Shown here piece after piece: positions 2,215-26,500 of a DNA stretch of 64,000 bases. The stretch spans positions 116,562,001 through 116,626,000 of the forward strand of contig NW_024704742.1 in NCBI RefSeq assembly GCF_018977255.1, written 5' to 3'. How positions within the stretch are numbered: the first letter of the stretch is position 1; every line of letters starts with the position of its first letter. Origin of the DNA: Callorhinchus milii (taxonomy: Eukaryota). Position numbers and translations under genes: made by a program. Below the pieces are notes generated by a model that had not been told where the DNA came from, searched no databases, and was given only the letters and a program-made list of their open reading frames with translations.

Positions 2215-2590
2215 TGTATCAGCTTGGCTCAGTTTGGCTCAGTAGCACTCTTGCCTCTGAGGCAGAAGGTTATGGGATCAAGCTCCATGTCAGGACTTGT
2301 AATCGCATATTCCAGTTGCAGTGCTGTAGATGTTTTGCAACGTTGGAGGTGCGGTTCTTAAGATGAGATGTTAAACCAAGGTCCCATCTGATTGTTCAGG
2401 TGGATATTAAAGATCCCCCAGCCTTATTTGAAGAGAAGGGAGTTCTGGCCAACAAATCCCCCAAATAAAATTGGTCACTCACTCCATGGCTGTTTGTGGG
2501 ACAGTGCTGTGTGCAAACTGGCTGCAAAGTTACTCCATTTCATAATGCATGTGATAATAACAATAAGGCACTATATCAAACAAGGATTTT
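2215..2590 (+). mobile_element. ancient DeuSINE (SacSINE1/AmnSINE-like) copy
   Basis: tRNA-like head, Deu-domain-like gatgagatgttaaaccaaggtcccatctg..ttcaggtggatattaaagatccc and shared 3' body; related copies at ~11085-11490 (-), 38550-38790 (-), 29325-29780 (+, interrupted). Confidence 0.7.
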
Positions 2591-2930
2591 TAATATCCTC
2601 CCTATGATATAGCTCTTTGACCTAATGCCTCCCCCTTACTCCATGACTCAAACGACCACATTAGCAATTCACAATCAGAGCCCATCTCTTGCAAGTTTGC
2701 AAGTCCAGGTGCTATTCAGCTGTTAAAAAACATGATTTAAACCAGGAAATACCAACTATATAAAACAATTTAAACTCTTGGTTGCTTTGCCAGAAACCTG
2801 TACGGGGTGTTTTCAGTAATGTGAGACTTCACAGAGATGAGTTGTGAAATCAGTCAACACCACAATATTATGTGGAGTACAAAATCAAGTGATCTAAAAC
2901 TTATTTCTTCATTCCTTGTTTCAATTCCAG

Positions 2931-3003
2931 GAACTTGAGAACGGAAGTGGTTCGTCTCTGGGGAGAATATGTAGACATCACAAACCTTATTGCAGTGCTG
3001 TGG
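2931..3003 (+). pseudogene. HEXB: degenerate beta-hexosaminidase (HEXB-like) exon remnant
   Basis: ttccag acceptor, then LWGEYVDITNLIAVLW (2956-3003), like the GH20 motif [21 protein letters not shown]; GGEA absent and donor reads tg|gcaggg; position and orientation match HEXB next to the GFM2 3' end. Confidence 0.7.
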
Positions 3004-3888
3004 CAGGGTCACATGAGCCAGTAAACAGGGTTATGAAATTGTACAGATACTCCAACAGGAGTATTCTTTCACATGCTTGGCTTTTACACTAAAGTCTGAT
3101 GTAGGAACAATTCCATTACTCAAATAAAATTGGCAAATAGAACATTGAACAAGTGAGAACATTCTTGGCACCTCAGAAGTTTACAATCATTGAAGAGACT
3201 CTAACCAAACTAACCCTAATCTATTCCTTAGTTATTAATTCTACCTTGTCTGGGCCATTTTTTTTTTAAAAAGTTTTTTTTTTAAAAAAAGGCCAGGTGA
3301 CAGATACTGATCAGTTACTTGAGTCAATGCTGAATAGGTTGATCTCAGGAAATCCATCTGAGCCACTGCAATTGCATGGAATGTCCAAAAGTGTCGCTCA
3401 CTTTTCTGCTCCCGATTGTTGTCAAGTGATTCTGCTGAAAAGTGTGTGAACAATATCAGCACTTAGCTTTAATACCACTCACAATGTCAAAAACTCACTG
3501 CCAGATTCACTTACTCACCGCAAGGGACTAGAGGGCATCTGGTGGGAATTAAGATTATGAGGGAGAGGCAGGGAGATTGAGGTAGGGAGTTCCAGAGGTT
3601 AGCACAGTGGCTACAGCACAGCCACCAAAGGTGACGAGGGGAGTCGGTGAGCATCCAGCTGGCTTATGTTAACTGAGCGAAGGGGGCAGCCAAAAGAGGG
3701 CTCTACAATCAGGTAAGAGAGGTAGGGAGGTGCTGGAACATAAATGTGGGAATGTCTTCATTACTCTGAGGCTGGGAGGGGAAAATGATTTCACTCACCT
3801 CCGTGAAGCCTCACAGTACTGAAATCACCTCGTACAGATTTCCGCCAAGCAGTGGTTTAAATTGTTTATTTGGTGTGTATTTTATACT

Positions 3889-4260
3889 ACAACAACAACA
3901 ACAAGATTCCATTTATAAAGCGCCTTTCACGTCAGGAGGACGTCCCAAGGCGCTGCACAGCTGGGTCATGACCCGAGCAGGGGGGAAATGGTCAGGGTGA
4001 GGGGAGGGAAGGGAGGGAGCGAGGAGGGGGAAGAGAGTCGAGAGGGGAGCTGAAGGCACGGTCAAAGAGAAAGGTTTTGAGACCGGCCTTGAAGGAGGAA
4101 AGGGAGGAAGCAAGGCAAAGGCATTGGGGGATAGAGTTCCAGAGCCTGGGGGCTGAGAGGCTGAAGGCCCGACCACCAATGGTAGTGCGGTTGGGGCGGG
4201 GGACGTGGAGCAGACCGGAGCCAGAGGAACGGAGGGTACGGGCAGGTAGGTAGGGGGATA
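3889..4260 (-). mobile_element. L2 3' fragment (same young family as 48250-49310)
   Basis: near-identical reverse complement of ~48860-49310. Confidence 0.92.
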
Positions 4261-4370
4261 CTGCCATTAATACGCAAAAGAATTGTGGAAAAAAGAAAAT
4301 AGAGACTTTACTTCTGTTTGTAGGATTTACAACAGACAATTCCATTGGTAACTGTCACTTTTGGCAGCAG

Positions 4371-4430
4371 GAATCGTGGTATAACAGTATAAGGACTGGA
4401 ACAAGCTGCTAAACCCATTCCTGGTTTTAT
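4371..4430 (+). pseudogene. HEXB: possible HEXB terminal-exon remnant
   Basis: after ttttggcagcag: RGI-[TV*GLEQ]-AAKPIPGF, like the hexosaminidase C-terminal RGIAAQPL.AG(Y/F)C with a stop-containing insertion. Confidence 0.45.
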
Positions 4431-4625
4431 GATGATCAACACATCTCACAAGTGAAAAGGATCTGAGAACTTAAAACTGCTTTCCCAATATTTCAAGTTC
4501 AGATAACAAAAAAAACTCAAGAACTTCATCACCATGTACATTATTAACTCATATGTGAGTGTAGATAGTGCTCATCTTTTGTTATCTTAATTCAATACGT
4601 TGGATTAAAAGATCTGCCAACATCC

Positions 4626-4652
4626 AATAAACTTGGATGTCATTTGTTTATT
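4626..4652. terminator. convergent polyadenylation signals: AATAAA on + (4626-4631) and on - (4647-4652, candidate GFM2 signal)
   Basis: direct sequence; first - strand AATAAA I found downstream of the GFM2 stop. Confidence 0.5.
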
Positions 4653-4724
4653 TCCCCTTTACAGAAGTAGGCCATTTGGAGAGGCTAACATTTCAGTCAT
4701 TTTGCGACAGTGAAGTAAAGTTGC

Positions 4725-4965
4725 AGGTTTGAATCCTGGTCTGTGCTGAGTTAGCTGATATCTGCCCAGGCAGCAGGTGAGAGAACTATAATTGGTGTCT
4801 GGGTTGTGGAATGGGTTCCCACTCCTAATTGCTCTGCAGCCTCCCTCCCCACCTCTGGTGGGAGGTGCATGTGTGTGGCGCTGGCTCAGATAGGTTCAGA
4901 CTTGGGCTGTGATGGGCTGTCAACATAACTGGCCAGGCTCACACATGAATAACGACTACTTGGGT
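4725..4965 (+). mobile_element. old SINE-like repeat inside the putative GFM2 3' UTR
   Basis: ggtttgaatcctggtctgtgctgagttagctga...ggctcacacatgaa; similar segments at ~22705-22925 and ~46972-47120; family not identified. Confidence 0.5.
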
Positions 4966-5404
4966 TAGATACTACAATCGGATGAAAAGGGAATGAAACA
5001 CATTCAGAAAAGGAGGGAGGGAAAATCCATGGATCCAGATGTAAATGAAATCAAAATCTAGTTGAAGTAAGAAAAAGCTGCCTTGTGATTTCATATTGTA
5101 AGTTGAGTCCCAACTAGAGTTTGCAGTTCACACCTCAGTCGTCTTGAGTGTGTTTATCAGCACTTGTAGATTCCGGGATCAGAAACAAATGTTAGCATCT
5201 GACATGATATACTGGGTAGAAGCCACTTCTGTTGCCTAGAAAGTGGCTGAATGTTCTAGGAAACCCTTTCCACATCTGCAAGATTCTCTATAGCATTCTG
5301 GAGGTCAATCATTTTCTGCTCCAAGCTGAGAAATCACCGTAGGTGTCCTTCTCCCAAATGTCATCAGTCATAACATGGACTTTGTAGATGGTTTTGTTCT
5401 GCAC

Positions 5405-5533
5405 TCACATGACTCCGGTCATTTTGTTGAAAAGCATCTTTTGTTCCTGTGAAGTCATCGCCTCATACCTCGACAGCTCCAAGGTGAATGTAGCCATGCC
5501 TGATGCCAATGTGCGGAGAGTGGTCGAATAACC
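5405..5533 (-). CDS. GFM2: GFM2 last coding exon ([26 protein letters not shown]...GVM*)
   Basis: GYSTxLR motif, TGA at 5405-5407. Confidence 0.96.
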
Positions 5534-8500
5534 CTGAAATCATTCACAAGCATTTAGATGTATGAGCAAATGCTCATCATTAAAAAGGAAAGGGGGACGG
5601 GGTATGAAAAGATTCACTTTAATGTTAGGATAATAATCTTTTTTTTAAAAAAAGCAAATTATTCCAAAATAATAAAGGTTAGAAACATTTTAGAATACTT
5701 TTTCACAGATTTCTTATTTTGTAACAACTAACCAGCTCGTACGCAATTGCCATAAACAACTTGAGCTTAAATGGCGCCTTTCACGTAGGCTTACGTGGCA
5801 CCTTTCACAAGGGCTGCTTGACCCCCTTATCTCCCACCCAGCTCAGGCTCCATTCTGTTTTTCCACAGCTCTTTGAGACGTTCTCCTAAACAAGTGCAAA
5901 CTGTTGAAAACTCATTTTTGAATCTCAGAATCGCAGCAACTTGGAATAGTTCTCAGTATCTCATCGTGGAATAGGATTGTTTATCCTTGGATTGAATGCA
6001 ACTGATGTAGTGTTTACACTTAGCAGAAAATAAAAGTGCTGATATGTACTTTGTCAATAAATAATAGAACTAATATCCAGCTCAATTCATAATTTACCAT
6101 CATTTCAGCAAGTGGGACACATGCCAATACCACTCGGTTATCCTGACGGCTCTGGATTTCCTGGACGCTTCCTCTTCTCTGAGCGAGGTCGGCCAGCACT
6201 ACACTGAGATGGTCTTCATCCACCGTGATCTCCAGGTTCATCACTGGCTCTAGGACCTGGCTCCCAGCACGCCTCAGTGCCTAGATGCACACAGACAAAA
6301 TAGCATTGTCTCAGAAAACAACCAATTCTTTACTGCCCACCCTATGAGTGGGGGTCAGGCCTTCAGCTTTTCTGCCCCCACCCTCTGGAACTCCATCCCG
6401 GAATCCTTCTGCCTTGCCCCATCACTTGCCTTCTTTAAGGCCCATCTCAAAACTTTCCTCTTTGTAAAAATTGTAATAGGAGTACAATTGATTCTCTTTG
6501 ACCACAAAATATACAAACAAAATTACAAAATTAAATTTTTAAAGTGCCTTTCACGTCGGGAAAACGTCCAAAGGCGCTGAACAGTCAAGGATTAGGGTCC
6601 GAGCGGGAGGGGAGCGCGGAGGGCCGAGAGGGTAGGAGGATGGTTGAAGGCACAGTCGAAGATGAGGTTCTTGAGGCGTGCCTTGAAGGAGGCAAGGTAG
6701 GAGGCATTATCTTGTGAGACAAGTCGGAGAGTGCCAGCAGTGATTTAACATCATCTCAGAAAACCATATCTCTTTCTAGCTCCAAATCCACATGTACTTT
6801 CTTAGCCGGGGTCACACTCAAAGGCAGGAAACTTGGTTGATTTTTTCTCCCCCTAAGCGCTTTGGTCAATTGTATTACTTCTACTGGTCACTCAGCACAA
6901 ATCAGGGATTGAACCAACCTATTCTGACAACATATTCAATTTATAACATTCACTGTAGGCATCTTAGTAGTTATTCAAACTTTTATCAGATACTAATTTG
7001 AGGAACAGAGACTGTTCAGATCCTCAGGTATTTTGCAATATGTTTTGCAGTTGCTCTAATGAGGCTCGAAAAGGCCGACTTCCCTTTAGAAACAGGCAGT
7101 GCATAACCTCCCATTTCTCTACATGTCCCACAAACTTCATATACTGACTAGAATGCAATCACACACAACCTTAGATAGCTATGCAAGAATAGGACTGGGG
7201 CTCTTTCACATTGTATTTTTGCAGTTCATATGCCTTTCTCAGACTAAGAGGTAAAGACCTTTGAGGAATCTATTCCTTTTATAGTGGTAGCCATCCTTTG
7301 TAGAACAGATTCAAATGGAAATTGTTGCTGGAAAGACTTACAGTAGGATGTTAATCACACACATAACTTGTGGTACAATAACCATAAAATAAACAATGTA
7401 TGTAATAAATGTTCTGGAGTCATTTGAGGTTAGTGATAAAACTGTGGGCACACACATGGCTTAAACATGCTTTTTGGACAGCCTGACCTGCAGTACATCC
7501 CGGTATATATTGTCAATGGGACATTATTCTCCTGGATTAGGTTGTTTCTTTGTACTACAGTTAGATTGTTGCTGCATGAATGTGCCAAATATTAATTCAC
7601 TTGCCACATAAACAACTGCATGCTTTAGGATGTGTGTGCCAAGGCCTCACCTTCTGCAAACAGCGAGATACACAAGCTGAAATCATTGGCATTGATGTCC
7701 CAGGGTGTACATGGAGAGATTCCAGTGTGACCACCACATCCTGAAGAGGGAAATTCAACAGTGGGCCTACAAACAAGGTAAACAACACTTGCGATGTTAA
7801 ATGGCATATAATTGGCAGTACAGTTCTATACAGTATGGTAGTAAGTAAATGCTGGAAGGATGTTTATACATGAATTTTAAATAATGCTAGGATTGAGCTC
7901 AATTATGATGCCTCCAATGATTGAATAGTCGGTCAAGGCCCAAAAAGCCAAACAGTGGAGAGAATCAAGGCTGATCCAATAGAGGAGAGTGTGATGAGTG
8001 TTACCGGGATGATGAGATGTGAGAAACAAATGGATAAACTTGGGCTCCAAGGTGACATGCTTGGCAACGGAAGGTCGGAATCAAGCCAGCTCAGCTGACC
8101 CCCCAAAAACAGACTTGGCGTTCTGGAGGAATGAGTTCAAATTCTGGAAGGATTTCGTCCTCAAAATATATAATCAGTTCACTTTACAGTATATTCTGTG
8201 AAGCACTTTCAGACGTCTCAAAGATGTGATAAAGCATTATATCAAATGCAAGGATTATTATTATTAAATAATCTGAAGATCCTTCTCCTAAATTATCTTG
8301 AGAACACTCACTGCCAAGGCTCATGGCTGACTCATGGCTGCCAAGTTACCCGAGGTTTCATTTTAATCCCATTAGAATGAAGAGAAGGGCAACAAAAAAA
8401 GTTAAACATTTTGTTTGGCACCTTGCAGAAATGAAGTGTTCAGTCCATTTTCCACAGCATCTAAGATTTCTGTGGAAAGTTGCTCCTGGAGAACGTCTGA

Positions 8501-11500
8501 AAACTCAATCAGAGGCTTCGTCACTGGGCCTTCTCCTAGCCATGGGCGAACTGACAGCTCAGCTGTTATCAGGTTGCGTTTGCTCCCCACGGTTCTGTCC
8601 AATGTATCTATGCAACAGAAGCAAGTCTCAAAGTGTTTTGCTACGTGAGTGTTAAGGTGTAAAAAACACTGATTAAAACTTAAAATGCCAGATCACTTTT
8701 TGGTGGTAATAATCCTTCCAATAAATAAATTACAAAATTTCACTCAATCCACAACTGTTTGCGGGACACAGTTGTGCCCAGATTGGCGCATTCTGGCTGC
8801 CACATTTTGGCCACAAAATTCCACTTTACAATTTTTCTGTGAAAGACTTTGAGACTCTCGACAACATGATAAAGAGCTATATCAAATGCAAGGTTTATTA
8901 TTACTTAGGAAGAATGTTCTCAACACACACAAATATCATTTAAAAACAAAACTGCTGATGCAGTTAGACAAATGACTTTTCGATGCCCGACTATTGGAGC
9001 AGTAGAACATTGGCAAAGGGCAACAACATTAATCAATCCAAGGTTGAGAAAACAGAAACTTAAAAACAACTATACTCCACACAGTACTTCCATTATTCCA
9101 GAATCATTGCTTCACTTGATTTTGATCATTAATGTAATAGTTTGTTGCAATTTACTATACAAAGAACTTTATTATTATTCAAAAGTTGACCTGACTTTTT
9201 GTTTCTGGAGCATAGACTTGGTCTATTCAGAGAAACCATTAAATAAACTAGAAAGTACAATGTGTTTACCTGCTGAGCTGGCAGAGATTGATATGGTTTC
9301 TCTGTAGGCCACTTGGAGGGGTCCAAGGTGAGTCTCAATTTTATACTCCCTCTTGATTCGATCATGGATTATGTCAATGTGCAGCTCACCCATTCCACAC
9401 AGAATAGTCTACAAAAATGGTCGAAAGTAGGAGTCAACTACCCTTTTCAAAACCAGTTGGCTTCCTGCTCTATTGGTAAAATTATTAATTAATTTACACT
9501 ATTCTGTCTCGACAATACCGTCGGTTATGTATATTACAATAACTGCATTAATCTCATAACCTCCTTTCACCCAGCAATGGGCAGTCAAACCCCGGCTACA
9601 GATTGCACCTGAAGACTTTCCTCTTTGACCCTGCCTACAGTCACCTCCACTTCCTCCCTGGCTCGGTGTCAAAATCAGACACTGTTCAGAACTCCCAGAG
9701 AAGCTATCCCACATGAAGAGCTCTACATACATGCAAGCTGTCATTTTATCACATCTAGCCATAAAGGCAAAGTACAGCATAACATAACATGTAGAAGCAG
9801 GAGTAGGCCATTCGGCCCTTCGAGCCTGCACTGCCATTCAATCATGGCTGATCTTCTAATCTAACTCCAGCTAATAACCTGACCCTGCCTTATCCCCATA
9901 TCCCTTAATCCCTTTTGCAATAAAATAGCACGGTGGCATGTTGCATTGAATCTACAATATGCTTGTTCCACAGACTGAAAGCTTTCCAGAGAAGCTGAGG
10001 CGGACAGTTCCTGAGTAGAAGAAAAAGGCAAAGGATACCAGAAGTGGCAATGCTGGTGGTCTAGATGACAGCTATTTTTAGCGGGTGGGAAACCAAAATG
10101 GCTAAATTCCAGGTCATGGAGTCCTTGCCAATGTCACTTTCTGTGTGTTTCCCATGGACAGTGAGCAGGGTCCACACACCATTTGTGTTGCAAACTATAA
10201 AGCACTGTAACAAAGTGCATTATAACAGATTGTGCTATAGTCTCTACTTCTGTATTTCTTGTTCTCTTTTGCTGTTCTTGTTTTGAAGAGATCTTGAATT
10301 TTCTCGACCTTGAATTTTGCACCCAGGCGAAAAAAGCATCGGAAATATGCTAACGTTTTGAAATCTTTCACAATGTTGTAACTCACCTGCCCGGAGTCTG
10401 GGTCAATCTTCACCTTTAAACTGGGATCTTCGCGCTGGAGACAGATAAGAGCACGGTCCAGATCTAGGAGCACCAATGAGAACTTGTATTGTGAAAACAT
10501 GTAAATCTGCTGCCACAGCTAAAAAGTTCCAGTGCCGTCACCACTGCAAAATCTCCGGCAAAAAGTGCCGACTACTGTGTTTTCTCCAGGTCCCTGCCTA
10601 GCACACAGGCCCTTGAGACTTTGATTCAGACAAGAGTTCTCACAAGTCTTAATAGGAGATTCCTGAAGAAAATGCTGTTTATGTTGAGGACACCTTGCCA
10701 GCAGCCACACAACAGTGTTGGCGCACAAACACCTTTCAGGTTACAAACTGGGGTGGAAGAGACTTTTGAAATCTATAACACAGAGTTTCATGGCTTGTTA
10801 AATAATAATAGCAAAACTATATTTATATAGCGTCTTTCACATCGGAAGGGTGTCCCAAGGCGATGGACAGTTGAGGAAATATTTGTAAAAAATTTTAATA
10901 AAACATTTTTTAAAAAATACAATTTAAATATATTTTTAAATTAAGTTAATTTATTTATTATTGATAAATAACCTGAAGGCTAATTTCACACTGTTAACAT
11001 ATTTTGGTTAGCAGAGGATAAGTATTGCATTGAATACAAGGATACTTTTACTGATTTTAAAAATAATAATTATATTTGGCATTCAAACTTATCACATTGT
11101 CAAAATGTCTCATAGCGTTTCACAGAATGTTTAGTGTGTAGTGACTGTGTATTTGTAGTCAAACAAAGCAACTAATTTATGCTCAACAATGTCCCATAAA
11201 TGCCAAACGTCCCTCGTGAAATGTGTAACCAATTTTATCTGAGGGATTGATGTCCAGAACTAGGAGAAACTCCTTTCTCTTTTTGAATAGTCTATGGGAC
11301 CTTTGCCATCCACCTGAACAAGCAGACGGGACTTCAGTTTAATATCTCATCCAAAGTCACTTCCGACAATGCAGCACTCCCCCAGTACTGCACTGGAGTG
11401 TCAGGTTAAAAGCTCAAAGTCCTGACATGGAGCTTGAACCCACAGTCTTTTGACTCAGAGACGAAAGTGTTACCAACTGAGCCAGGTTGACACCTCAGTG

Positions 11501-14500
11501 GAGATTAAACTGGTTATACGTGAATCAAACGTTGCATTCACCTGCTTGCTTGGCCAATGAAGGGGGTTCAATGGTGCAGAAGAAGACTGGTTCAGGAATC
11601 TCAACACCTGCCAACACAAGATTTTCCTGCTCTCTGTTCTGATCACACTTTTTTCCAGAATCCTTCGCTGCTCGCTGGGACGCAACTGCTGCTGATGCCT
11701 TTGATGAAACTATTGTGTCCCCAGTGGCTGTCTTGAGAGGAAAGCAGAAATTACCATCAGACAAGCAGCAAAGCTCATTTGGCTTGCAACAGACAACAAA
11801 TTCAGCCTGCGTACTGCTGTAAAATGTAGTAAATAGAGACAACAGTGGGTAAAGTGAATGGAAAGAAGGGGAACCCAAAAATGCACGAAAGGGATATATA
11901 ACTTATATAGCCTGATGGCATTTCTTGGTAACATTGATGTTCCATATTCCTTATGGATCTAAGAATGAGATACTCACAAACAAATTCACAAATAGCGACA
12001 CCTGCCGGTAACTGGAAGTCACGTCATCTCACAGAAACTGCACTTGAGTCGTGACAACCATAATGCCAGTGTGACAACATAGCATTAGGTGAAAGAGCAT
12101 TTTAAGATCTAAAGGCAGATATTATTATTAGGTTTTATTTGACAAGAGTGTATATTTTCTACTATGTAAGCATTGCCCAAGTACCGTCTAACCCTGCCAC
12201 AATGCTGTCCATGAAATTGCAAGTAAACGGCTGCAGCTTCCAGGTCATTGGGTTACTACTTACCTCACTTCTAGTATAACAGGCATCCCCAATCTAATGA
12301 GTCATGTTATAACTGGTCTGAACTAACCAATTCTATTTACATAGAAAATGAGCATTCCTATGTTTCAGACCGTTACGCTCACAGTTAAACAAAAAGGTAA
12401 AAGGATTTTTTTTGACACATCCAGAAACCCATCACCATGCTTAAGGGAATCCAAACCAAACTGAGAATTCCATGCAACCCACCTACACCTGGAAATGAAA
12501 TTCAATAGATAGATTGCTCACAGTTAAACAAAAGGACAATTTGCAGACACTTCTCACCTGTTTGAGTCCAACAAGCAGTGCAATATTTCCAGCCTGTAAT
12601 GATGGGATCTCAATCTGCTGGTCAGCAAAAGGCAACAAAAGACGACTCATTCTTTCCCTGAACAGCACAGTCGGGACAAAAAAAACACAAGATTAAAATT
12701 TCATAATTTGGAGAGAGAATGAGAACAAGACACTGGGTTCCATTTCTCCTGATGTTTTCCCAACAAGCACGTTTTCAATGTTAATATCAAGTTAAATAGA
12801 ACTTTTCACCTTTGGAACTATTGATATAAATAAGTAACATAAAACCACTTCTAAATGACACTAACAGAACAGCATCATCCTGTGGTCTGTTATGGCATCC
12901 ACATTATTGGTTTTCTTGCAATACGGTATTTCCAAATATTGTTCACCCTTCAAATGAAAATAGATTCGCCCCATCTTGAAGGAATACTGAACTTCACCTC
13001 AAAGAAAACATCTGTATGAGTTGGACTGAATTGATTAATCTGACAGCACTTCAATAACAACAACTTTCACTTCTATAGCCCCCTCCACACAGGGTAGTGT
13101 CACAGAGCGCTTAACAGTGCTTTATTTGAAACTTTATTTCAAAATTAAAGCTAGGATCGGTAGAAGTTGGATCAAAAAACATTTCCAATGTGAAATGCAC
13201 TGCGCCAGAAGGCAGCAGAGTTAAAATCACTTGAGCTATTTAAAAGGGAGATAGTAAGGTACATGGGAAGAGATGATATTAAGGGTTTGGAGAAAAGACA
13301 GAGAAACGGGATTAAAGGATCTAATAAACTACCGGATGGAACACACTCAATGGGCTGAATGACATTGGTCTCCTCTTGTTCCAAGCATTCTGTCATATGT
13401 AAGTATTATTATTAAAGTTTTTTTTAAATGATCACTTACTTTTGAAATTATTTATTTGGATAAGTGCCAATCTTGATTTAAAACAAGTATCTTAATAAAT
13501 AATTTATGAAAGAGGATGTGGAGCAATCGACATTTACAGGAGCACATTAGCCACTCACATGCAATTCTTGTTGATGTTGTAAACGGCTGACTGAGGTTTC
13601 ATCGACCCAGAATAGATGCGGACAAACACTATAGGTCCTCGCTGTTTGTCGTGAAGAACTTTAAAGGCAAGAGCACACAGGTCATCCCCATACCACTGTC
13701 TGAAAATGGAATGGCGGGATAGAAACATGTTTAATATTTTTCTTTTTTAATACCACGTGAAAGGTCAAACATCTGAATAAAAAGCTAAACAAAACGAGTG
13801 CTCATTAAATCATGCAGGATTATAGCTTTTCTCATTGGGATCATGCTTCTTCCCTCATTAAATAACTAAGATGAGAAGCTTGAGACTGTCCAGGACAAAG
13901 CGGTTTGCTCAATTGGCACACCAGCAAATCTAGTCAGGGTTCATTCCCACTCTCATCAATGTACTGTGACTACAGTGTCTTCTATCTCCACCACCATTCA
14001 GGACAAGACAAACACCACCACATTATCCTCCAAGTCACTCAGCATTCTGACTTGGACATACATCACCTTTTCTCCATAGTCAAAATCTTGGGTCTCTCTA
14101 CCCAACACTCCAGGAGGAGCACCATTACCACAAGGACGGCAGTGGATTAAAGCATAGGTCCCACCACTACCTTTTCAAGACAACCAGAGACTTTTCAGGG
14201 CAATAAATGTCGATGTCGTCCACATCCCCAAATGAATTTTAAAAAATATGAATGTCTCACGGTTTCTGCTACAAGAAAGATCCAACGAAGCATTCACTGA
14301 ACATCAGTGTTAATTGGAACATTACATTTTTCTCCTACATTGAAATCTCTGCTTTTTCTCCATAAACTTTCATATTCTTCAAATATTTAATTTGACTCTC
14401 ATTTAAATGTTATGGTCTGAGCCACAGGAGTTTGATCCTCACCCTCTGCACAATACTGCAGTGGGACAAATTAAACTGTCTCTGAAACCACCTCTTCCAA

Positions 14501-17500
14501 ATGGTGCCAGGAGCAGGCTTCAGCACTGGTTCAACTCCAGATCTGTACTAAATGTGTCACAGCGAATCGCTGCCAAAGTAATAGAAGCACACGCAGTAGA
14601 AACACAGAATAAACCCCACAATGTGGCATTTGGCCTGCAGTTCGGAACCACCTTTTTTTGCCACATTTATTAAGTATCGAAAAATCACGTCTGTTTGCAG
14701 TGAGTCATGGGTTCATGAAAAACATCACAGGGAAAAAATTCCACCTGGGTCTAGATTTACTCTAATTACATTGCTATTCAGAGTGAACCAAATTTAGCAA
14801 ATTCTTAATTATAGCTTTAGTTTTGAAGGCTGTTTTGTCCAAATTCTTTTAAGCTACCTCCTGGTGACTGCTCTCAAATCGCTCTTGGCAAACTAAACCT
14901 GTGTCCTCTTGCTCAATCACCTAGATATTCCCTCTATTGTTTCCCTCTTAGCTGACACTAGACCATAATGTCTAGAAGCAGTTCAACCGGTTTGGATTTC
15001 ACATGAGGAAGCTCAAATCTGGATGGAAATCACACCAATGACATATAAGCATCGATGCTCCTGAAACCTGAATCCTCACTTAAAGTCATGCTGGCCTTCA
15101 TTGGGGGACGGCAGGTACATGGAGATGGCGTCCATCAGCAACTGCACTCCTTTGTTCTTCAGTGCACTTCCGCACAATACAGGCACGGCTGCATGACTCA
15201 GTGTGATTCGGCGGATTGCTGCGTTTAACTGTATTGAAAATGACAAGATTCTTACTCGTTATTGATTTTTCATCTCCCGAACTGCAGAGCATTAGCCCAA
15301 TTTTTGTGGTTTCGCTGCTGATATCAGCTAACAGCACAGAGCACGGATCAACCTGGGACCAGTATTGGCTCAATCATCACACCAAACACAAGCATCTCTC
15401 CAAAGAGACACCATGGAAGCTAGCCAGTCAATGTTTTATCAGCAGTAGCAGGGAGAGTGACTGCCAAGTTAATAAGCTCAGTTTTGCTACCTTCCCAAGA
15501 TGGGCTGCCTCATTTTCTGAGGCTCGCCACCTAACGACCCAGTCAAAAACTGACAGAATTCACCCCCAAATCAGATAGTTAGATTTGGTAAATGTGGTGG
15601 TTTGGGTTCATAAATTCCGACTTTGGGGGTTTTCCCATGTTGTAAAGGGCTGCTGGTCACTGATCTCGTACAGGCAACCATTCTCTTAAGCATCTCGAAC
15701 AGTTGCTGGGATGTCATAAGGCGTCCTGGGTCTGTGTGCCGTGCCCCAAACATATCACACTTCTGGTATATCACAAGTCCACAGATCACCAGCTATTAAC
15801 TGACCCATGCTATTCCAAAGCGCAGTATAACGGGGTATGATTCCATGAGGTTTTCATTGAAAGGCAACCCCAGGGACTCAAACCCATAACCTGATTTGAA
15901 GTTTTTGTTTTGGAGCCTTCACGGAATCAATCTACTGAGAGTTTAGCAAATTCACCTTCTCAGCAGGAACTGCTTCTATGTTTTCACACAACTCTCTCAG
16001 AGCCAACTCAGCAAATTCGTCATCCAGATCCGCTACCTGTGGGAACCGATCACCATTAATGTCCATGTTAAATCTGATACGGGGCATCAATACAGCATAC
16101 ATCTTAATGAGGCAGATTTTGTGAAAATATTGAATCAATTTTGCTTTGCCTGAGCATACGTACCATAAATATACAGTTTGAATACACAAGATTGATGTAC
16201 ATTGAGGTCTGCATTTAAAAGGTAATCAGCACAAATGTTTGGCTTCTGACTGTAAATCACTTAGATGTGACTTCCCGCAAAAGAGAATAACCATAAATAA
16301 AGTGGAAAACAGCACGAGTTAAATAAGAAATTGCACGATTCAGTACAATGTCATGGTTACAGTCCGTTTCATGTCAGAGACAATGTACAATAGATCTCAT
16401 CTAATTTTTACCTGCCAAATGAGTGTCTACTTAAACAAAACTAACTTAGCAATCCGACAAGTTGGTGCCAATTTGGAGGTAAATCTAGGGAGTTTACTGG
16501 TAACCAACACCCATTTTAAACCACTCAATACTTTTTTTGTTTCATCTATATTTTTAAATAAAAAGGGTTGCAAAAATAGTTTTTCACCTACATTGACATA
16601 AGCAGTGTTTTATGGAGAAATAGCTGATGTTTGTTAATTCGGTGCTTGCTATTTACGTTTCACAACCTGGTTTACAAAAAGTTGAGGTTATATAGCATCT
16701 CGCAGGAAGGATACTGTTTCGAAGCTCTTTACAGTGACAATATGGATCAACAACAACAAATTACATTTGTATATCGCCTTTCACATCAGGAGGACATCCC
16801 AAGGCGCTGGATCACCAAGCAGGATGGGAATGAAAGAGAGTTTGAAGATGCAGACTGATGAAAGACATGATCAAAGAGATAGGCTTTTAAAAGGGGTATT
16901 AATGCAGGGAAAATAGACAAACAGCAAAGGGATTCTGGTAGAGTCCTACAAAATGGGGTCATAGTTACTGAAAACTCCGTAGTTCTGTTTGAGCTGGAGC
17001 TTCAGAAGGATACAGTGTTGGATAAATCATGCAAACATGATTAAGATGATGAAAACATGATGATTTATGGTGTGTTCGCATACATATGTGAAGTTACAAT
17101 ACTGGTCTTTCAGCATTTTAAAGACTTCAATCACACCCTCCTTTAATCTTCGCTCTTAATGAAAACTTGATTCTTGAATTTCTATTGGGAATTTAGAAAA
17201 AACCTTCTCTCTCTCTGCTCACTTATTTTTTTCCAGCAAGACAAGGGTTCCAGAAGGCATATACAACAATCAAAATAATATCATATCTGAAATATCCTCT
17301 ACGGCACACGTATGTGTTGATAAAGGACTATTTGTGTTCTGGGGAATTTAAGAGCGGAGTTTCGTAAATGTTATGCTACAATGACATCTATGGCATATAA
17401 CTCTGGTTGAATATTCTCCTGTGATGTTTGGCAGATGCCATGCTCTCAAATAAACATTTGAATTCAGTTAATCTATTTCATCGATCACCGACAATCATGG

Positions 17501-20500
17501 TTGAGGGAGTCTTCTTCCCTTAGACCTTCCCTTGGTCATTCACTCCATGACTTTTTGTGGGACATTACTGTGTGCAAATTGGCTGCTGCAGTCACACACA
17601 AAACATAGTCACCCCTCTTTACAGTATATCCTGTGAAGCACTTTGGGATGTCCTCCTGACGTGTAAGGCGTAATACCAAATGCAAGGTTGATGATTGGAT
17701 AGGGTTTACCAAAGTTGTCTTTCTCCTTCCTATTTGGGATGCTAAGGCCATAGAGAAGGTGCAGAGGAGATTCATTCAGATGTTAACAGGGATGAGAGGT
17801 TTTACTTATGAGGAGAGACTGAACAAACTGGGATGTTTTTCCTTCAAGAAAGTTAAGCAGAGACCTGATGGAGACTTTTAATACTATTAGGGATTTTTAA
17901 TAACGTAAACAGGGAGAAATGATTTCCGCTGCTTGTTGAGTCAATTACCAAAAGAGCAAAGGGAAAGGAGAATTTTTTTTCTCACAGAGGGTTTTTAGGA
18001 CAAGAAATTCCTTATCTAGAAGGGTGATTGAAGTAGATTTCATATCAGCTTTTAAGAAGGAATTAGATAAATATCTGAAAAGAGAAATATAAAAGGGTAT
18101 GGGGGAAAGGCATGGGAATGGAACTGATCAGAGAGGCACAATGGGCAGAATGGTCTTCTGGGCTGTAAAGTTCTATGGTTTTCTCCTATTCAGTTTAAAG
18201 CCAATATAAAAGCTTTGTGAATATTTTATCTCCCTTTCAGTTTCTGTAGTTACTCTCGAATTCAAGATCCTCACCCTCACCTACAAGGCCATTCACGGCC
18301 TTGCTCCCCCCTACCTCTCCGACCTACTATCCCCCTACCTACCTGCCCGTACCCTCCGTTCCTCTGGCTCCGGTCTGCTCCACATCCCCCGCCCCAACCG
18401 CCCTACCATCGGTGACCAGACCTTCAGCCTCTCAGCCCCTAGGCTCTGGAACTCTATCCCCCAGTGCCTGCGCCTTGCTCCTCCCTTTCCTCCTTCAAGG
18501 CCGGTCTCAAGACCTTTCTCTTTGACCGTGCCTTCAGCTCCCCTCTCGACTCTCTACCCCCTCCTCGCTCCCTCCCTTCCCTCCCCTCACCCTGACCATT
18601 TCCCCCCTGCTCGGGTCCTGACCCAACTGTACAGCGCCTTGGGACGTCCTCCCGACGTGAAAGGCGCTCAATAAATGGAATCTTGTTGTTGTTGTTGGCA
18701 CTTAACCGTATACCTAACGGCAGGTCAATTTGTTCTTGGATAAAAGTGTTTTAAGGATGCAAATTGTTAAGAAAAAACTAAGAAAAAAAATCCTTCCTCA
18801 GCTCAAGAGGTTAAGATGAAATTTACCAAAACACATCATGGGGTATTTACCAAAAGACATTCTATTATGTACAAAGTATAAGCTCCGTGTACTATGTGTA
18901 ACTTATATGTGCATCGAGTGAAATATGGAGTCCTTAATTCTGTAATTAAGATTAACGATATAATCTTTTTCTTTGGTTAATTATATAATTAAGGACGCTT
19001 GTTATTCCTTGTATGCACGTTTACACATAGCACAGCTGTATACACCTGCGGTTCATAATAGATTTCACCCCTGAATTTGAAACAGAATCAAATAGTGAGG
19101 TGATTAATGTGCTCAAGTGAGAGATGAAGCTTAATGCACAAAAAGGAAGGTTGTACACTTTGAGACGAAGAATAAGGAAAGGAATTATATTCTAAATAGT
19201 AATATTTTAAAAGGAGAAGAAAATCAGATTGATAGGTGTTAACAGGCATAAATCTGTAAAAGTGGGGAGACAATTGGACAAAACTGTGAAGAAAATAATG
19301 AGATACTGGGTTTTATAAACTGAGACATTAAATATAAAACTAAATAGGTGACGTTTAACTTGTACAAAAAATTAGTTAGACTACAGCCAATGAAAAAGGC
19401 TACAGGGAATTCTAAAACCTTCATTTGATTTAAAATGATAAACACCCACACTTCTGCTGGTTTGTTATCACACAGTGGCAGGGAAATAAAATAATAAATT
19501 AAAAATGTGGTAAGATTATGTTGAATTAATCATTCATATATAAACTGGGTATTTTGTAGATTAAACACTTCAAACATTTACTTTAAAACTTTACTTGTTC
19601 AATAAGGGCATATCTCGCATCTCTGGCTTCCTTTAAAAGATTTGGTCCATCTGCTGTCACTAGAGGATGTCGATTGAACACTGCTCCGTCACCATCACTT
19701 GTCTTCGGGCCCCAGATAACTTTTTCACTTGTGACAAGGTCAATCACTCCGGTAAATGTCCTCCCTGCTCCGATAGGCAGCTGCAATTAAGAAACACACA
19801 GGAAACAATGAACAGAATAGTCCCTTTCTAAGTAAAAGAAGATGTGCTTTTGTAACAACCAGTCATATATCAATACCTGGCCTATCAATGAATCCTGGTC
19901 ACATAGAATGGGGAGTAGGGGGAGGGGTAAAACCTTTAAAGCTCAAAGGCTAGATAAGGAATATAGATGAGATTAGGTCACATTAACTCAACAACGTCAT
20001 CACGATCACCATTACAAAGCACAGTAGCTATTGCTTCTATTTCTGAATATTCCGGTCTCTATACCCAATCGGTATAATCTCTAATCGGTAATCTTACCCA
20101 AAAAACACATTCAGACACTTTGTGCTTGATATTTCATCAGTGGAAATGTCCCAATATTAGAAATCAATAATAGTGTGATTCAGCATCCTCCAGATCAGGT
20201 GAGCACCCCAGTGACGGATTCACAAAATAACACTGGCACCAGCAGATGGGAGAGCTTAGTATGTTATTCATCCTCATTGAAGATACAAATACAATACAAA
20301 ATTACATTTGTAAGTGCCTTTCTTGTAGGGAGGACGTCCCAAGGGGCTGAACAGTCAGGGATTAGGATGTATGAATGTGAGAAGTACCAAAAAAGGGAAA
20401 GATTCAAAAACGAAAAAGTAAAGAAAAATGCAGACAACCATATTAAGAAACCTTTATATAGTACTTATACCATTACTCACATATTTTACTTATAAAATGT

Positions 20501-23500
20501 ATCTGAATCAGAAATTCTACTCTTATTACACTATGCTGATAGATTACCAATCTGGAAAATCACATTGAAATCCAGGCATGTGGGAAGAAACACACTCAGT
20601 TATGATTCCCCCACAGTAAACAGAGAAAATTGAGAAGGAAAATGGTTACCTGCAGCAGAAGTGGTTTCACCTTTAGCTTCTTTTTGATGCTGTCCACAGA
20701 ATAGCAGAAACTGGAAATGAAAGAGATCCCATTAATGAGGAAATAATTGAGGATTACCACAGTATGGATGCAAACACTCTTATGAAGGGCACCATAGCCT
20801 GGTTGCTGGCAAACCATAAATTTCAACTTTTCTTACTATTTTTGGATGGGTTTATTTCTACAAAAACTCAGCAAAAGTACAAGAAACAAAGTATTGAGTA
20901 TTGTATACTAACCTTAGTTGCTTTATTGAAAACCATTTAGTTGTAAAAGGTCAATCATGATCATCACACTCATCAATATGCATTCCCCAGAGCCTTTTGT
21001 CTCTGTCAATGTGTTGCTTTTCCACAGAAGTTGTGTTCTCCATTCATCATATAACCTGTCCCATTGCAGGATTTAGCTGTTGCTTCTAATCTACATTCAC
21101 TGACTTTCTTCCAGTGTCCAAAATTTGATTCTTCTAGCGAATTCGATAGCTGAATCACTAAACCTTGATCTTTGCAAGGGCTTTCGATAAAGCATTGCAA
21201 ATCTTGTTACATCAATAATTATGCTTTTACATATTTTCACAAGTCTAAATACCTGCCACCTGCTAAATCTCTCCTACCCATATAGCATTCGTTCCCAGAA
21301 CCTTAAGACTGGAATTTTTGATTTGCATCAACCAAATACAAGGATTATTACTTTATTATCTTCCCTTCCTCCTACAATCAACAGCCTTGAAAAGTCTAAA
21401 CATGTCTACTCGATCTATCTCGTTTTCCTATCAAATATTTGCCTAGTGTTAAACTAACTGGTTTATAATTCTCTAATTTATAACTCACTGTTTCATGCTT
21501 CAATCCTTATGCCAATATCAGAGTTGAAATGGCTAACTCCCAGTCCACAGAAATGTACTGTATTTATGAAACCAGAAACTCTTCTACTTTATCTCTTATA
21601 TTTTTGGGGCAATTTAAGATAGTTCCAATCCAGTCACGGTGTCCCTTAGAAATGTAAACTTTTAAGGTTGAAGCAGTATTTGAAACAGCCTTATATATCT
21701 GACTTGGGAATATTGGCTGCCATTTCATACTGTGAATGTTCAGTAAGCTTTACCTGGCTCCAGGCTTATCCATCTTGTTTAAGAAGCAAATACGTGGAAC
21801 ACGATGTTCATCTGCCTGTCTCCACACAGTCAAGGTTTGCGCCTACCAAACAAAGCACACTGATTATATCAGAGATAAACCAGAAGTAAGAATTTTTCCA
21901 CCTTTCATGTCCACAGCACTTAATCAATGCTGTGCCTTAGAATATATATGTACAGTATACCACAAGTATATTTAAATTAGGCAAATGCTACACAATTCTG
22001 TATTTCAAAGCTACCAACACAGAAAACATTCCAAAGCTATATTTACAGTAGCTGTGTTTTTTTTGTTCAGCCACCGTCTAATACATGTGGAAACCCATCA
22101 CCATGTAAGCATCAAAACCATAATAATAATAATAATCCTTGCATTTGATATAGCGCTTTTCACGTCGGGAGGACGTCCCAAAGCGCTTCACAGGACACAC
22201 TGTAAAGTGAATTGACTGTATATTTGTGGGCGAACGCGGCAGCCAATTGCGCACAGCAATGTCCCACAAACAGTCGTAGATTGAAAATGACCAATTTATT
22301 ATTGTTTTGTTTTTTTGGAGGGATTATTATTAGGCTCTGTGTGGAGTAAGGAAACTTGCCCAAGGTTTCGCCCTCTGCCTGGAATTGAACTCAGGTCTCT
22401 CGCTTGCAAAGCGAGTGCTCTAACCACTGAGCTACAGGACTCCACAATATGGTAAAAGAGGTAGGTTTTTGGGGGGAGGGAGTTTGAAAGCAGTGAGTGA
22501 GGGCGAATGAGACTGAGCGATTTAGCAAAGGAGTTTTAAGGAGCAGGAGAGAGGGTATAGTGGCTGAAAGCTTCTTTAGGAAAAGCAGTTCCCCTTTAAG
22601 AAACTCAAAGCAATAATAATAAAAAAACACCATGAGAAGAAAGTGAGAATGAGAGTTCTGCATAGTTTTATTCCTTGAACAACAATAGATGCAAGTTGTT
22701 TCAAGTTCAATTCTTGGCCTGGGCTGAGTTGGCTCATTTGTATGAGGGAGGAGTGCAGGGTGCGATGATTGGCCTCGGTATCTCACCCCAAGGGAGAGGA
22801 GAGAGAAATAAACAATCACTTTTACTGGTAAACAGTGACCCCTACTGGCAAATGTACATAAATGGAAGTCAGGCTTCACTTGTGAGGCTCCACGTGATTA
22901 AATATAGCCTGATGGCTGACACATACAAAAAAATAATTTGATCACTCAATCCACGACTGTTTGTGGGACACTGCTGTGCGCTTTTGGTTGCTGCGTTTCG
23001 CCCATCGTCGATTCACTTTACAGTATATTCTGTGAAGCGCTTTGAGATGTCTCGAAGACATGCTAAGGCGCTATGTCAAATGCAAGGATTATTATTATTT
23101 ATCATAGAAGGAGTCACTGCCTTCGGTGGAGGAAACTAGAAAAAACAAAAAGGATGCAAAAGCATTTGTTGGATTGTTTTTTAAAAAAGGATAGTGTTGA
23201 GACCATTCATTCTTTAAAGAGAACGTTACTGACCTCCACACCAGCTGAAGCATCAAACACTGCCACAGCTCCATCAAGTACTCGCAAAGAACGTTCAACC
23301 TCAACAGTGAAGTCCACGTGACCTGACCAGATACAAGATGTAAAGTTCAGTGCCTCAGAAGTGAAATTTCATATTGTTTAGGTACAGAAAATGTGAATTG
23401 TAAGAGATTATTTTTGACATATGAACTGGGCTCAGCTGACACAAACTAAATACGAATCAGATTGACCTCCAAGTATTCTTGTACCCTTTGCTGGTTGTTA

Positions 23501-26500
23501 CAACTTAGATGTTCTTTACTACCGGTCTCTACAGGAGATGACTTCATCACATTCTTCATATTGTTTGTCAATATAAGCATTTTGGATTAATTTCCAAATA
23601 GACTGCTGTATACAATTCAATTTCCACCAAAAAAACTATCTTCTTAAAGTATCATTAGCAAAACATTAACAACAATATTTACACTTTTATAGCATATTTC
23701 ATGTTAGGAGAACATAAATCCTGTAGCTCAGTGGTTAGAGCACTCGCCTGGTTTTGATTCCCGGCAGGGCGAAACCTTGGCAAATTTCCTTAATCCACAC
23801 GCCTAATAATAATCCCTCAAGAAAAAAAAGCAATAAAATGGGTCACTTCAATCCACGACTTTTGTGGGACATTGCTCTGCGTAATTGGCTGCCGCGTTTC
23901 GCCCACAAATATACAGTCAACTCACTTTACAGTATATTTGGGACGTCCTCTCAACGTGAAAGGCGCTATACAAATGTAATGTTGTTGTTGTACTTTGTGA
24001 AGTGCTTTGAAAAAAATCTCAAAATGTTTTATAAAGACTGAACAGGAGCCCAGACTGGGAGGAAGCTGGTGAGGTGGTCAAACCACATTCAAAGAGTTAG
24101 GTCTTCAGAAAGGATTTGAATATGGAGAGGGAAGGGACAAGGTGGAAGGAGTTGGGAGGGGAAGAGTTTCAGAGGGAGGGGAAAAGTAGCTGAAGGCTCA
24201 CCCGCCATTGGGGGGTGGAGCGAGCAGGGACATGAAGCATGAAGTATGTGGACAGGTCAAGGAGTAGGATCACGCAGAGGCACGATTGTGCAAGGTCGTG
24301 GAAGTATTTGAAGATAAGGACGAGGATCTTGAAGTTGATCCATGAGGGATAGGGAGCTCAACATGCAAAATGGTCCCTAGTTCCACCATCTCTCTAGTTC
24401 ACCATCCACAAGCTATTGTTCATACAAATTTCCGCTACCCACAACTTCAACCGCACCAATCTCTACACGTCCATCTCCCATTTTGTGCTTCCATACCTGG
24501 TGTGTCTATCAAGTTGATTCGATGGTTTTTCCAGTCAAAAGTAACAGCAGCTGACTGGATGGTAATCCCCCGCTCCCGCTCCTGTGCCATGAAATCAGTC
24601 ACCGTGTCCCCGTCATCCACATCTATGTGATGAGAAGAAGATTGTGTACAACAGTGTGTTAAGAAGTGAAGCCTAATTCACAATCACTTCATATCAATAA
24701 ATTCAAGAGGAAATTATATCCAATAATTCAGTAAAAGTGTGTTTAATATAAAATCAGACATATTACAGGGTACATAGACCTTTGAAATGGATTGACTTGA
24801 GCATGGGCTGGCACCCAACATCCAATAATGTACGAAAAAATAATTTCAGCACTGAAGGCGCTAACACATCCCATTGTGTGTATGTGCTGTACTAGCTCCC
24901 CAATGGAGCTATCTATACTAATCTCATATTCCTGTTCTTACCATGTATGGCAAGTTCCTGGACTAAGCTATGCTCTCAGGGAGAGGTGCTGAGTACAAGA
25001 CTGGCTGCCACATGGAGGAGATATTTAAAAATAAGTAAGACAAGGCAGTTATACAACAGCAGTCAGAGTCTGGGAGTTGATTGCCTGCTATCTTATGTCA
25101 GCTAGATCGTGGCGGCCAACTTGGGAAGTAACAAAAAAGGAGAGGAGACAAAGGAGTTTCCAAACTAAATAAAAGGTTTTTATATAAATATTTTATGTTT
25201 AACTTATTCCACTTTCCAAGTTGTGTTTTATCTCAGTCTCTTTCTTTCTAGCACACACTCCTCATGCTAACTTTGAGCTACAATCTAACCTGCTTGTCCA
25301 CAGTGCAAATCACTCTTCCTTATCTGCTACTTTTATATACTGCAGTGGATGAGGATAGCTTTACATAAACAGTTCATTATTTTGTGCCAACTAATTTATT
25401 TTTACCTCCAAGTGCCCTGGTGTATCCGGCATAGTAAAGCATCCTTTCGGTGGTTGTGGTTTTTCCTGCATCAATGTGAGCCATAATTCCAATGTTGCGG
25501 ATTCTGATGATTTTTATCCAAAAGGGAAAGTGAATTACTTAACAAAATGAATGCCGGAAATAAAAGATAGCCCTGAACAAATCTAAAAGGGAGTTCAGTA
25601 GGAACCTCTTTAAGTAGAGAGTGATGAAAATGTGTAGCTCGCTGGTAAAAACTGTGGTTGAAGCAGAAAGAATCAATGTATTTGAGAGGTTGCTCAATGC
25701 ATGCACGATGGGGAAGGGAATAGAAAGATATGGGGGCACGCTGGGGAAGGGGGAGATTAGAATGGGTGACGGCTCATGCAGAGAATAAACAGCGACTAAT
25801 TGGATCGAATGGTCTGTTCCAGTTCTGTAGATTCTATGTAATTCTCTACATATTATTGTAAAGCATAATTATTAGCATTATTCTATGTTATTTAGGCATA
25901 ATAGCTACTGGAGACTGTAATGCGGGACAAAATAAAGCTCTACTTAGAGGAACACGAGGTAATTAGAGACAGCCAACATGGATTTGTTAAAGGCAAATCT
26001 TGCCTAACAAATCTAATAGAATTTTTTGAAGAGGTGACTGCGAGGGTTGATGAGGGAAATGCGGTGGACATTATTTACATGGATTTTAAAAAGGCTTTTG
26101 ACACAGTACCGCATAAGAGGTTAATAAAAAAACTGGAGGCCCACGGTATTAAGGGGACAGTAGCCGTTTGGATTAGGAACTGGCTGAGTGACAGAATGCA
26201 GAGGGTGGTGGTTAATGGGTGTTTCTCGCAATGGAAGGAGGTGTGCAGCGGTGTCCCCCAGGGATCGGTATTGGGACCACTGCTCTTTCTAATATATATT
26301 AATGATCTGGACTTGGGCATAGGGAGCACTATTTCCAAGTTTGCAGATGATACCAAGTTAGGTAGGGTAGTAAATAGTGAAGAAGATTGTGACGGACTGC
26401 AGGCAGACATACACAGAATGGTGGAATGGGCTGACATGTGGCAGATGGATTTCAATGTAGATAAGTGCGAGGTGATACACTTAGGTAGGAAAAATGATAG

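What the first reader, a model, noticed from the sequence alone, without database searches (positions are those of the whole stretch)
2931..4430. Candidate HEXB pseudogene: only decayed hexosaminidase exons at the syntenic position
Seen: after a good acceptor (2930), the + strand reads LWGEYVDITNLIAVLW (2956-3003). The exon is 72 nt, lacks the preceding GGEA, and ends in tg|gcaggg rather than GT. At 4375-4428 it reads RGI-TV*GLEQ-AAKPIPGF. I found no intact copy of the exon that normally lies between them (PRASAVGERLWS-like), only a faint trace near 3165-3205. Known: HEXB (GH20 lysosomal beta-hexosaminidase, Sandhoff disease gene) lies tail-to-tail with GFM2 in vertebrates; from memory the orthologous human exon is 91 nt with a different phase. 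Inference: HEXB is inactivated here, either a lineage-specific loss compensated by a HEXA-type gene or a relic left after relocation or duplication.
Basis: partly seen in the sequence, partly recalled or inferred. Interest (0 to 1): 0.75.

Follow-up and report, generated by a model that had tools for sequence, protein, structure and literature searches.

The report
Decayed spare HEXB copy, elephant shark
Next to GFM2 in the elephant shark genome lies a broken piece of the Sandhoff-disease gene HEXB, but it is likely a leftover of a local gene duplication beside a working copy rather than a loss of the gene, and the published gene tables hint, untested, that this fish may instead lack the sister Tay-Sachs gene HEXA.

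Summary
The window is Callorhinchus milii: its GFM2 tiles XP_007903528.1 at 776 of 776 residues. The hexosaminidase exon at 2931-3002 is real and dead. Contigs of three other runs keep all three lesions, so this is no assembly error. The proposed last exon (4375-4428) and the exon-13 trace score no better than chance; a marginally better last-exon candidate lies at 3345-3390. Gene loss is not supported. A paper aligns an elephant-shark HEXB RefSeq protein (NP_001279725), and published reciprocal-best-hit tables place two hexosaminidase models (SINCAM001211, 001212) directly before GFM2 (001213). The best reading is debris of a tandem HEXB duplication with a working copy upstream, outside the window; I could not see those models. 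One open lead: lizard HEXA's best elephant-shark match is SINCAM001212 at the HEXB locus, although HEXA's usual neighbours are present elsewhere. The missing gene may therefore be HEXA.

The parts
2905..2930 (+). Pyrimidine tract and AG acceptor of the HEXB exon-12 remnant
   Evidence: Sequence; the alignment to the fish HEXB exon starts exactly at 2931
2931..3002 (+). Decayed HEXB-type exon 12: 72 nt instead of 91, IGGEAC plus one base missing after 2956, frameshift; near-invariant Q, P and R replaced
   Evidence: lesions unchanged in contigs of runs X2, X5, X6
2936..2938 (+). In-phase TGA at the third codon of the exon
   Evidence: G-T-*-E-R-K-W-F-V in the phase of the fish exon; no other letter listed
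3003..3004 (+). GC in place of the GT donor
   Evidence: no other letter listed
3171..3204 (+). Possible trace of exon 13; not distinguishable from chance
   Evidence: not significant
3345..3390 (+). Best candidate for the exon-14 remnant (SGNPSEPL, then C-P-K after 13 nt where 12 are expected); marginal
   Evidence: 0 of 117,976; 0 of 100; 2 of 200; 3 of 80
3888..4258 (.). 371-nt interspersed repeat (SINE-like; label from my knowledge), present or absent between individuals
   Evidence: Joint 3887-4259 in runs X2 and X5; up to 17 matches in the rest of the window
4375..4428 (+).
4231..5404 (-).
   Evidence: One contig of run X6 spans 4231-5532 and is spliced to 6097
5405..28829 (-). GFM2 coding span, intact; anchors species and synteny
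   Evidence: 776 of 776 residues of XP_007903528.1 lie in exact 8-mers of the window; last intron spliced in X5, X6, X8
39179..42334 (+). Exons of an S8e-family gene, likely NSA2 (name recalled), the usual neighbour of GFM2
   Evidence: PF01201 in 3 of 46 ORFs scanned

Best explanation
The 2931-3002 stretch is a broken HEXB-type exon 12, likely the 3' end of a spare copy left by a tandem duplication of HEXB (whole gene or its last exons), with a working copy likely just upstream of the window. Shown: homology, the three lesions, their presence in other runs, and the position tail-to-tail with GFM2. Inferred: the duplication freed the GFM2-proximal copy from selection; it gained a stop, a 19-nt deletion through the invariant GGEAC strand and a GC donor, while exons 13 and 14 decayed almost beyond recognition. 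It would make no enzyme, and RNA over it is likely unspliced or GFM2 read-through. Lysosomal beta-hexosaminidase would come from the upstream gene (NP_001279725 is likely SINCAM001211 or SINCAM001212).
For: Lesions. Not an assembly error: contigs of X2 (2500-3887), X5 (2500-3362) and X6 (2703-3143), from 2 studies, list no difference in 2931-3004 except a T-to-I change in X6 at a residue kept in 108 of 109 proteins. X5 and X6 cross both splice sites unspliced at depth 6-8, and bin depth equals that one contig's depth; the GFM2 intron is spliced at depth 26-68 in X5, X6 and X8. HEXB type: L before WGE as in 101 of 109 mostly-HEXB proteins, where the HEXA-type and most invertebrate sequences have M. 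Synteny: sturgeon FKN15_007487 (HEXB-like) and 007488 (GFM2) are consecutive on one 88,891-base contig. Working copy: NP_001279725 aligned as elephant-shark HEXB (NP_ meaning transcript-backed is my knowledge). Two models: Anolis HEXB pairs with SINCAM001211, Anolis HEXA with 001212, GFM2 with 001213, in a colinear run of ids, by reciprocal best BLASTP.
Against: I never saw the sequence or position of NP_001279725, SINCAM001211 or SINCAM001212; no chondrichthyan hexosaminidase was among the hits listed. The two models could be one split gene, and NP_001279725 could be misnamed. SINCAM001212's best lizard hit is HEXA, not HEXB, which a plain HEXB duplicate does not predict. No trace of exons 9-11 in 1-2900, so I cannot tie the remnant to either model. 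Contigs drop rare splice forms and 112 joints were not shown.
Confidence: 0.8

Rival explanations
1. HEXB is a unitary pseudogene in C. milii and a HEXA-type gene works alone as a homodimer.
For: Only broken exons lie at the place where HEXB ends in other vertebrates. SINCAM001211 and 001212 could be two halves of one dead gene. One of them is the reciprocal best hit of lizard HEXA.
Against: An elephant-shark HEXB RefSeq protein is used in PMC5787214. Both hexosaminidase partners in the table lie at this locus and none at the HEXA block, so this rival needs an unannotated HEXA. Human alpha-alpha HexS is unstable (PMC4774620 passages).
Confidence: 0.08
2. The copy is still transcribed and uses 2931 as a terminal exon, ending at the TGA at 2936 and the AATAAA at 3123, giving a shortened non-catalytic subunit.
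For: The acceptor looks well kept; AATAAA at 3123; a contig of X6 ends at 3143; a gene model, SINCAM001212, was called directly before GFM2.
Against: The contigs of X5 and X6 cross the acceptor unspliced and account for the whole depth of those bins; X5's contig runs on past 3143. The product would lack E491, Y492, T496, A543 and the third disulfide named in PMC2492878 (passages).
Confidence: 0.07
3. The match is chance or the lesions are assembly errors in an intact exon.
For: The protein-level E-value is modest (0.015), Pfam gives no GH20 hit on 94 ORFs of 1-5300, and exons 13 and 14 are not clearly found.
Against: 0 of 60 and 0 of 200 nulls reach the exon-12 score; both exon ends coincide with the fish exon; three other runs carry the same lesions.
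Confidence: 0.02

Closest known systems
Vertebrate HEXB (GH20 lysosomal beta-hexosaminidase subunit beta), exon 12
   Same: WGEYVD..TNL...LW motif, L before WGE, both exon boundaries, position tail-to-tail with GFM2.
   Different: Stop at codon 3, 19 nt short with IGGEAC gone, GC donor, PR replaced by AV, exon 13 not detectable, exon 14 only marginally.
Duplicated (unprocessed) pseudogene fragments of tandem arrays (class known from general knowledge)
   Same: Keeps splice-site positions of the parent, carries disabling changes, lies beside a likely working paralogue.
   Different: The working parent was inferred from an accession and id tables, not seen as sequence.
Engineered single-subunit enzymes HexM (PMC4774620) and modHexB (PMC13198282); passages read
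   Same: Relevant only to the novel case: one subunit type that hydrolyses GM2 without a HEXA/HEXB heterodimer. Sturgeon and teleost HEXB already carry a GSEPSGT-like loop, one of the two swaps in modHexB.
   Different: Those are engineered human proteins. No C. milii enzyme was examined here, and the remnant itself encodes none.

Membership tests
Functional vertebrate HEXB gene | Exon 12 homologous to GH20 HEXA/HEXB, with WGEYVD | tested here: met
Functional vertebrate HEXB gene | Exon 12 of 91 nt, open, with GGEAC and a GT donor | tested here: not met
   72 nt, TGA 2936-2938, GC donor; same in X2, X5, X6
Functional vertebrate HEXB gene | Intact exons 13 and 14 downstream (14-exon structure, PMC2492878) | tested here: not met
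   Exon 13 not significant; exon 14 at best a marginal, frameshifted trace
Functional vertebrate HEXB gene | Position next to GFM2 | tested here: met
HEXB rather than HEXA lineage | Groups with beta chains in a tree | tested here: inconclusive
   No tree built on 24 decayed codons; only synteny and the L before WGE point to HEXB
Unitary pseudogene (gene loss) | No working orthologue anywhere in the genome | tested here: not met
   NP_001279725 used as elephant-shark HEXB; SINCAM001211 is the reciprocal best hit of lizard HEXB; sequences not seen
Duplicated (unprocessed) pseudogene | Disabling lesions fixed beyond one assembly | tested here: met
   3 of 3 runs that cover the exon keep them; the fourth run laid does not cover it
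Duplicated (unprocessed) pseudogene | Parent's exon-intron boundaries kept | tested here: met
   Acceptor and donor positions match the fish exon
Duplicated (unprocessed) pseudogene | Intact parent copy in the same genome | tested here: inconclusive
   Indirect only; no genome held
Duplicated (unprocessed) pseudogene | No spliced coding transcript | tested here: inconclusive
   Only unspliced contigs seen over the exon, but contigs show presence, not absence
HEXA loss in C. milii (novel case) | No HEXA gene in the HEXA syntenic block | not testable with these tools
   Neighbours map to SINCAM922613, 922614 and 013197 while HEXA maps to 001212; no assembly to search

The most novel reading that the evidence does not exclude
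The elephant shark has lost HEXA and runs lysosomal hexosaminidase entirely from tandem genes at the HEXB-GFM2 locus, one of which has become alpha-like; the broken exon is debris of that expansion. It would be a natural vertebrate counterpart of engineered modHexB/HexM, degrading GM2 without the Tay-Sachs gene while keeping GM2A (SINCAM010209).
Probability: 0.3. Interest if true: 0.7.

Novelty: new member of a known kind. Interest (0 to 1): 0.3.

Why it matters
As it stands this is an ordinary decayed duplicate, useful mainly as a warning: a broken exon at the syntenic position is not a gene loss when the window cuts off the upstream copy. It would matter if the side lead holds. Vertebrate HEXA and HEXB are described as sister groups from an early vertebrate duplication (PMC2492878, passages), and human GM2 breakdown needs the alpha-beta heterodimer (PMC4774620, passages). 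A jawed vertebrate with only HEXB-locus genes would show how one subunit type can do the job, which is what gene-therapy constructs for Tay-Sachs and Sandhoff disease try to engineer, and it is testable with one alignment and a MUG/MUGS assay.

Tried and rejected
No whole genome was held, so nothing upstream of base 1 could be read. Pfam on 94 plus-strand ORFs of 1-5300 gave no GH20 hit. A homologue search with the 43-aa ORF found no candidate. The 50%-cluster search (150 listed of 19,443; 10 named) and a consensus-profile search (120 listed of 3,753) listed no named chondrichthyan hexosaminidase; this says nothing about absence. The run search listed no holder on record as RNA; X8 has no cover over 2631-3547; neither is evidence. 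Exons 9, 10 and 11 were sought in 1-2900 without result (7, 31, 37 of 60 nulls; 34, 4, 13 of 40). A rescue through the AG at 2947 and the GT at 3021 or 3030 keeps the frame but still lacks GGEAC and has no pyrimidine tract; rejected. Ten paper searches showed no report of a HEXB pseudogene, tandem HEXB or HEXA loss in cartilaginous fish; subscription journals are mostly not covered. The one supplement held for PMC3964593 has no HEXB or hexosaminidase. The archive of PMC8302630 is cut at 4 million characters; only the lizard-elephant shark table was readable, not the human, chicken or gar ones, which bear directly on the HEXA question. Six recalled human ids for HEXA neighbours were not in it. 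Earlier scan notes gave nothing relevant. No structure or complex was predicted: there is no open protein to fold.

Full report
Setting. No genome was held. The minus strand carries an intact GFM2 (coding span 5405-28829). All 776 residues of C. milii XP_007903528.1 lie in exact 8-mers of the window's frames, against 338 of 777 for zebra shark and 347 of 704 for whale shark. An S8e-family gene, likely NSA2 (name recalled), follows at 39-42 kb (3 of 46 ORFs). HEXB beside GFM2 is old: sturgeon FKN15_007487 (80% to a fish HEXB over 169 aa) and FKN15_007488 (GFM2) are consecutive on one 88,891-base contig. In nine teleosts that I matched by eye, HEXB and GFM2 rows share a contig length.

Exon 12 is real. 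8 of 10 PDB hits for 2929-3018 are hexosaminidase chains (best E 0.015). A motif scan of metagenome contigs gave 73 loci, among them fish HEXB and HEXA mRNAs and genomic exons. On genomic locus L011 the exon is 91 nt between AG and GT. The window's exon starts and ends at the same bases but has 28 nt before the W codon where the fish has 47. A profile of 109 proteins, mostly ray-finned-fish HEXB, hits only this place in the window (i-E 0.0021). Two frameshift-aware scores put it far above window nulls (0 of 60; 0 of 200).

It is dead. In the normal phase it reads G-T-stop-E-R-K-W-F-V against the consensus G-T-E-E-Q-K-K-L-V. It then loses I-G-G-E-A-C and one base and resumes out of frame at L-W-G-E-Y-V-D. 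The donor is GC. Of 16 aligned positions kept in at least 105 of 109 proteins, 3 are changed (my count). With the slowest neutral rate among the vertebrates examined (PMC3964593, sections 7 and 8 read), that suggests an old event; I did not date it.

It is not an assembly error. Four runs were laid on 2500-6400, all as contigs. X2, X5 and X6 (2 studies) cover the exon and list no difference in 2931-3004, apart from a T-to-I change in X6 at a residue kept in 108 of 109 proteins. They differ from the window elsewhere, so they are other haplotypes. The last GFM2 intron is spliced in X5, X6 and X8 (depth 68, 54, 26) and not in X2, so those three hold RNA. X5 and X6 cross 2930 and 3002 unspliced at depth 7.7 and 6.3, equal to the whole depth of those bins. 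This is weak evidence against use of the exon, since contigs drop rare forms and 112 joints were not shown.

The other exons. No exon-13 signal passes chance (20 of 100; 44 of 200 and 20 of 80). In its favour are an in-phase acceptor and an AATAAA at 4626 facing GFM2's signal at 4647. It lies in the long GFM2 3' UTR and in the most variable part laid (8 substitutions in 372 nt). SGNPSEPL at 3345 beats all 117,976 positions and is followed after 13 nt (12 expected) by C-P-K, but reaches only 2 of 200 and 3 of 80 in the codon model. I rank it first, unproven. Exons 9-11 are not detectable in 1-2900.

HEXB is not lost. PMC5787214 (passages) aligns NP_001279725 as elephant-shark HEXB; that NP_ records are transcript-backed is my knowledge, and I did not see the sequence. 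In Supplementary Data 1 of PMC8302630 (passages, parts 1 and 15 and searches of the archive, methods passage of the Supplementary Information), orthologues are reciprocal best BLASTP hits. I fixed lizard HEXA and HEXB through the opossum Hex1 and Hex2 ids of PMC2492878; the GFM2 and GM2A ids rest on recalled human ids. Lizard HEXB pairs with SINCAM001211, lizard HEXA with SINCAM001212 and GFM2 with SINCAM001213. Eleven other ids around them run colinear with the lizard ids, two more do not, so the ids are positional here. Two hexosaminidase models therefore stand directly before GFM2.

How it likely arose. A tandem duplication of HEXB, whole or of its last exons, left the GFM2-proximal copy free to decay, while the upstream copy supplies the enzyme (0.8). 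The duplication and the working copy are inferred; the lesions are shown. Rivals: unitary loss (0.08), a truncated transcript ending in this exon (0.07), artefact (0.02). Against my reading: SINCAM001212's best lizard hit is HEXA, the two models may be one split gene, and no chondrichthyan hexosaminidase sequence was retrieved.

The open lead. Lizard HEXA found no better partner among 18,747 models than a gene at the HEXB locus. Genes that flank HEXA in dog, gar and lizard ids map elsewhere, to SINCAM922613, 922614 and 013197, and 922612 belongs to another gene. GM2A is present. A missed annotation would explain this as well, and the block mixes two id series. If real, C. milii lacks HEXA. Human alpha-alpha is unstable and only alpha sites take charged substrates (PMC4774620, passages). 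A beta chain gains GM2 activity by DL-to-NR and a GSEPSGT loop (PMC13198282, passages), and sturgeon and teleost HEXB already have such a loop. I give this 0.3.

Verdict. A real, fixed, ordinary pseudogene fragment; the gene-loss headline fails. Ten paper searches found no description of it. PMC10707392 was read as passages and added nothing; other papers were seen as search listings only. Interest 0.3, carried mostly by the HEXA lead.

Noticed in passing
outside the window; PMC8302630 Supplementary Data 1, ANOCA-CALMI table: Lizard HEXA's reciprocal best hit is SINCAM001212, between the HEXB partner and GFM2, while HEXA's neighbours map elsewhere; C. milii may lack HEXA at its usual place.
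   Followed up: partly
window 3888-4258: A 371-nt SINE-like repeat is absent in runs X2 and X5 and partly covered in a unique contig of X6: a presence/absence polymorphism, so the family was recently active.
   Followed up: partly
window 4259-4630: Unusually variable stretch (8 substitutions and 4 indels among four runs), with three alleles at 4389-4393, inside the long GFM2 3' UTR.
   Followed up: partly
window 4231-5404: GFM2 appears to have a long and a short 3' UTR: contig depth drops near 4600-4800 in X5 and X8 while one X6 contig runs to 4231; AATAAA signals face each other at 4626 (+) and 4647 (-).
   Followed up: no
P0287, L014:239-1264, L024: Sturgeon and teleost HEXB carry a GSEPSGT-like loop that is alpha-specific in humans, so the human beta loop looks derived.
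   Followed up: no
window 25955-26071: The UniRef GFM2 model A0A4W3JLQ2 (P0041) starts in what is intron for the RefSeq model and includes other intron-derived stretches; likely annotation noise.
   Followed up: no
window 53283-62989 (-): Acidic, glutamate-rich ORF pieces without a Pfam hit in the five scanned; likely FAM169A by gene order (recalled).
   Followed up: no
window about 26100-27270 and 57400-58300: ORF pieces that look like LINE reverse-transcriptase and Penelope-type GIY-YIG fragments by eye; not tested.
   Followed up: no
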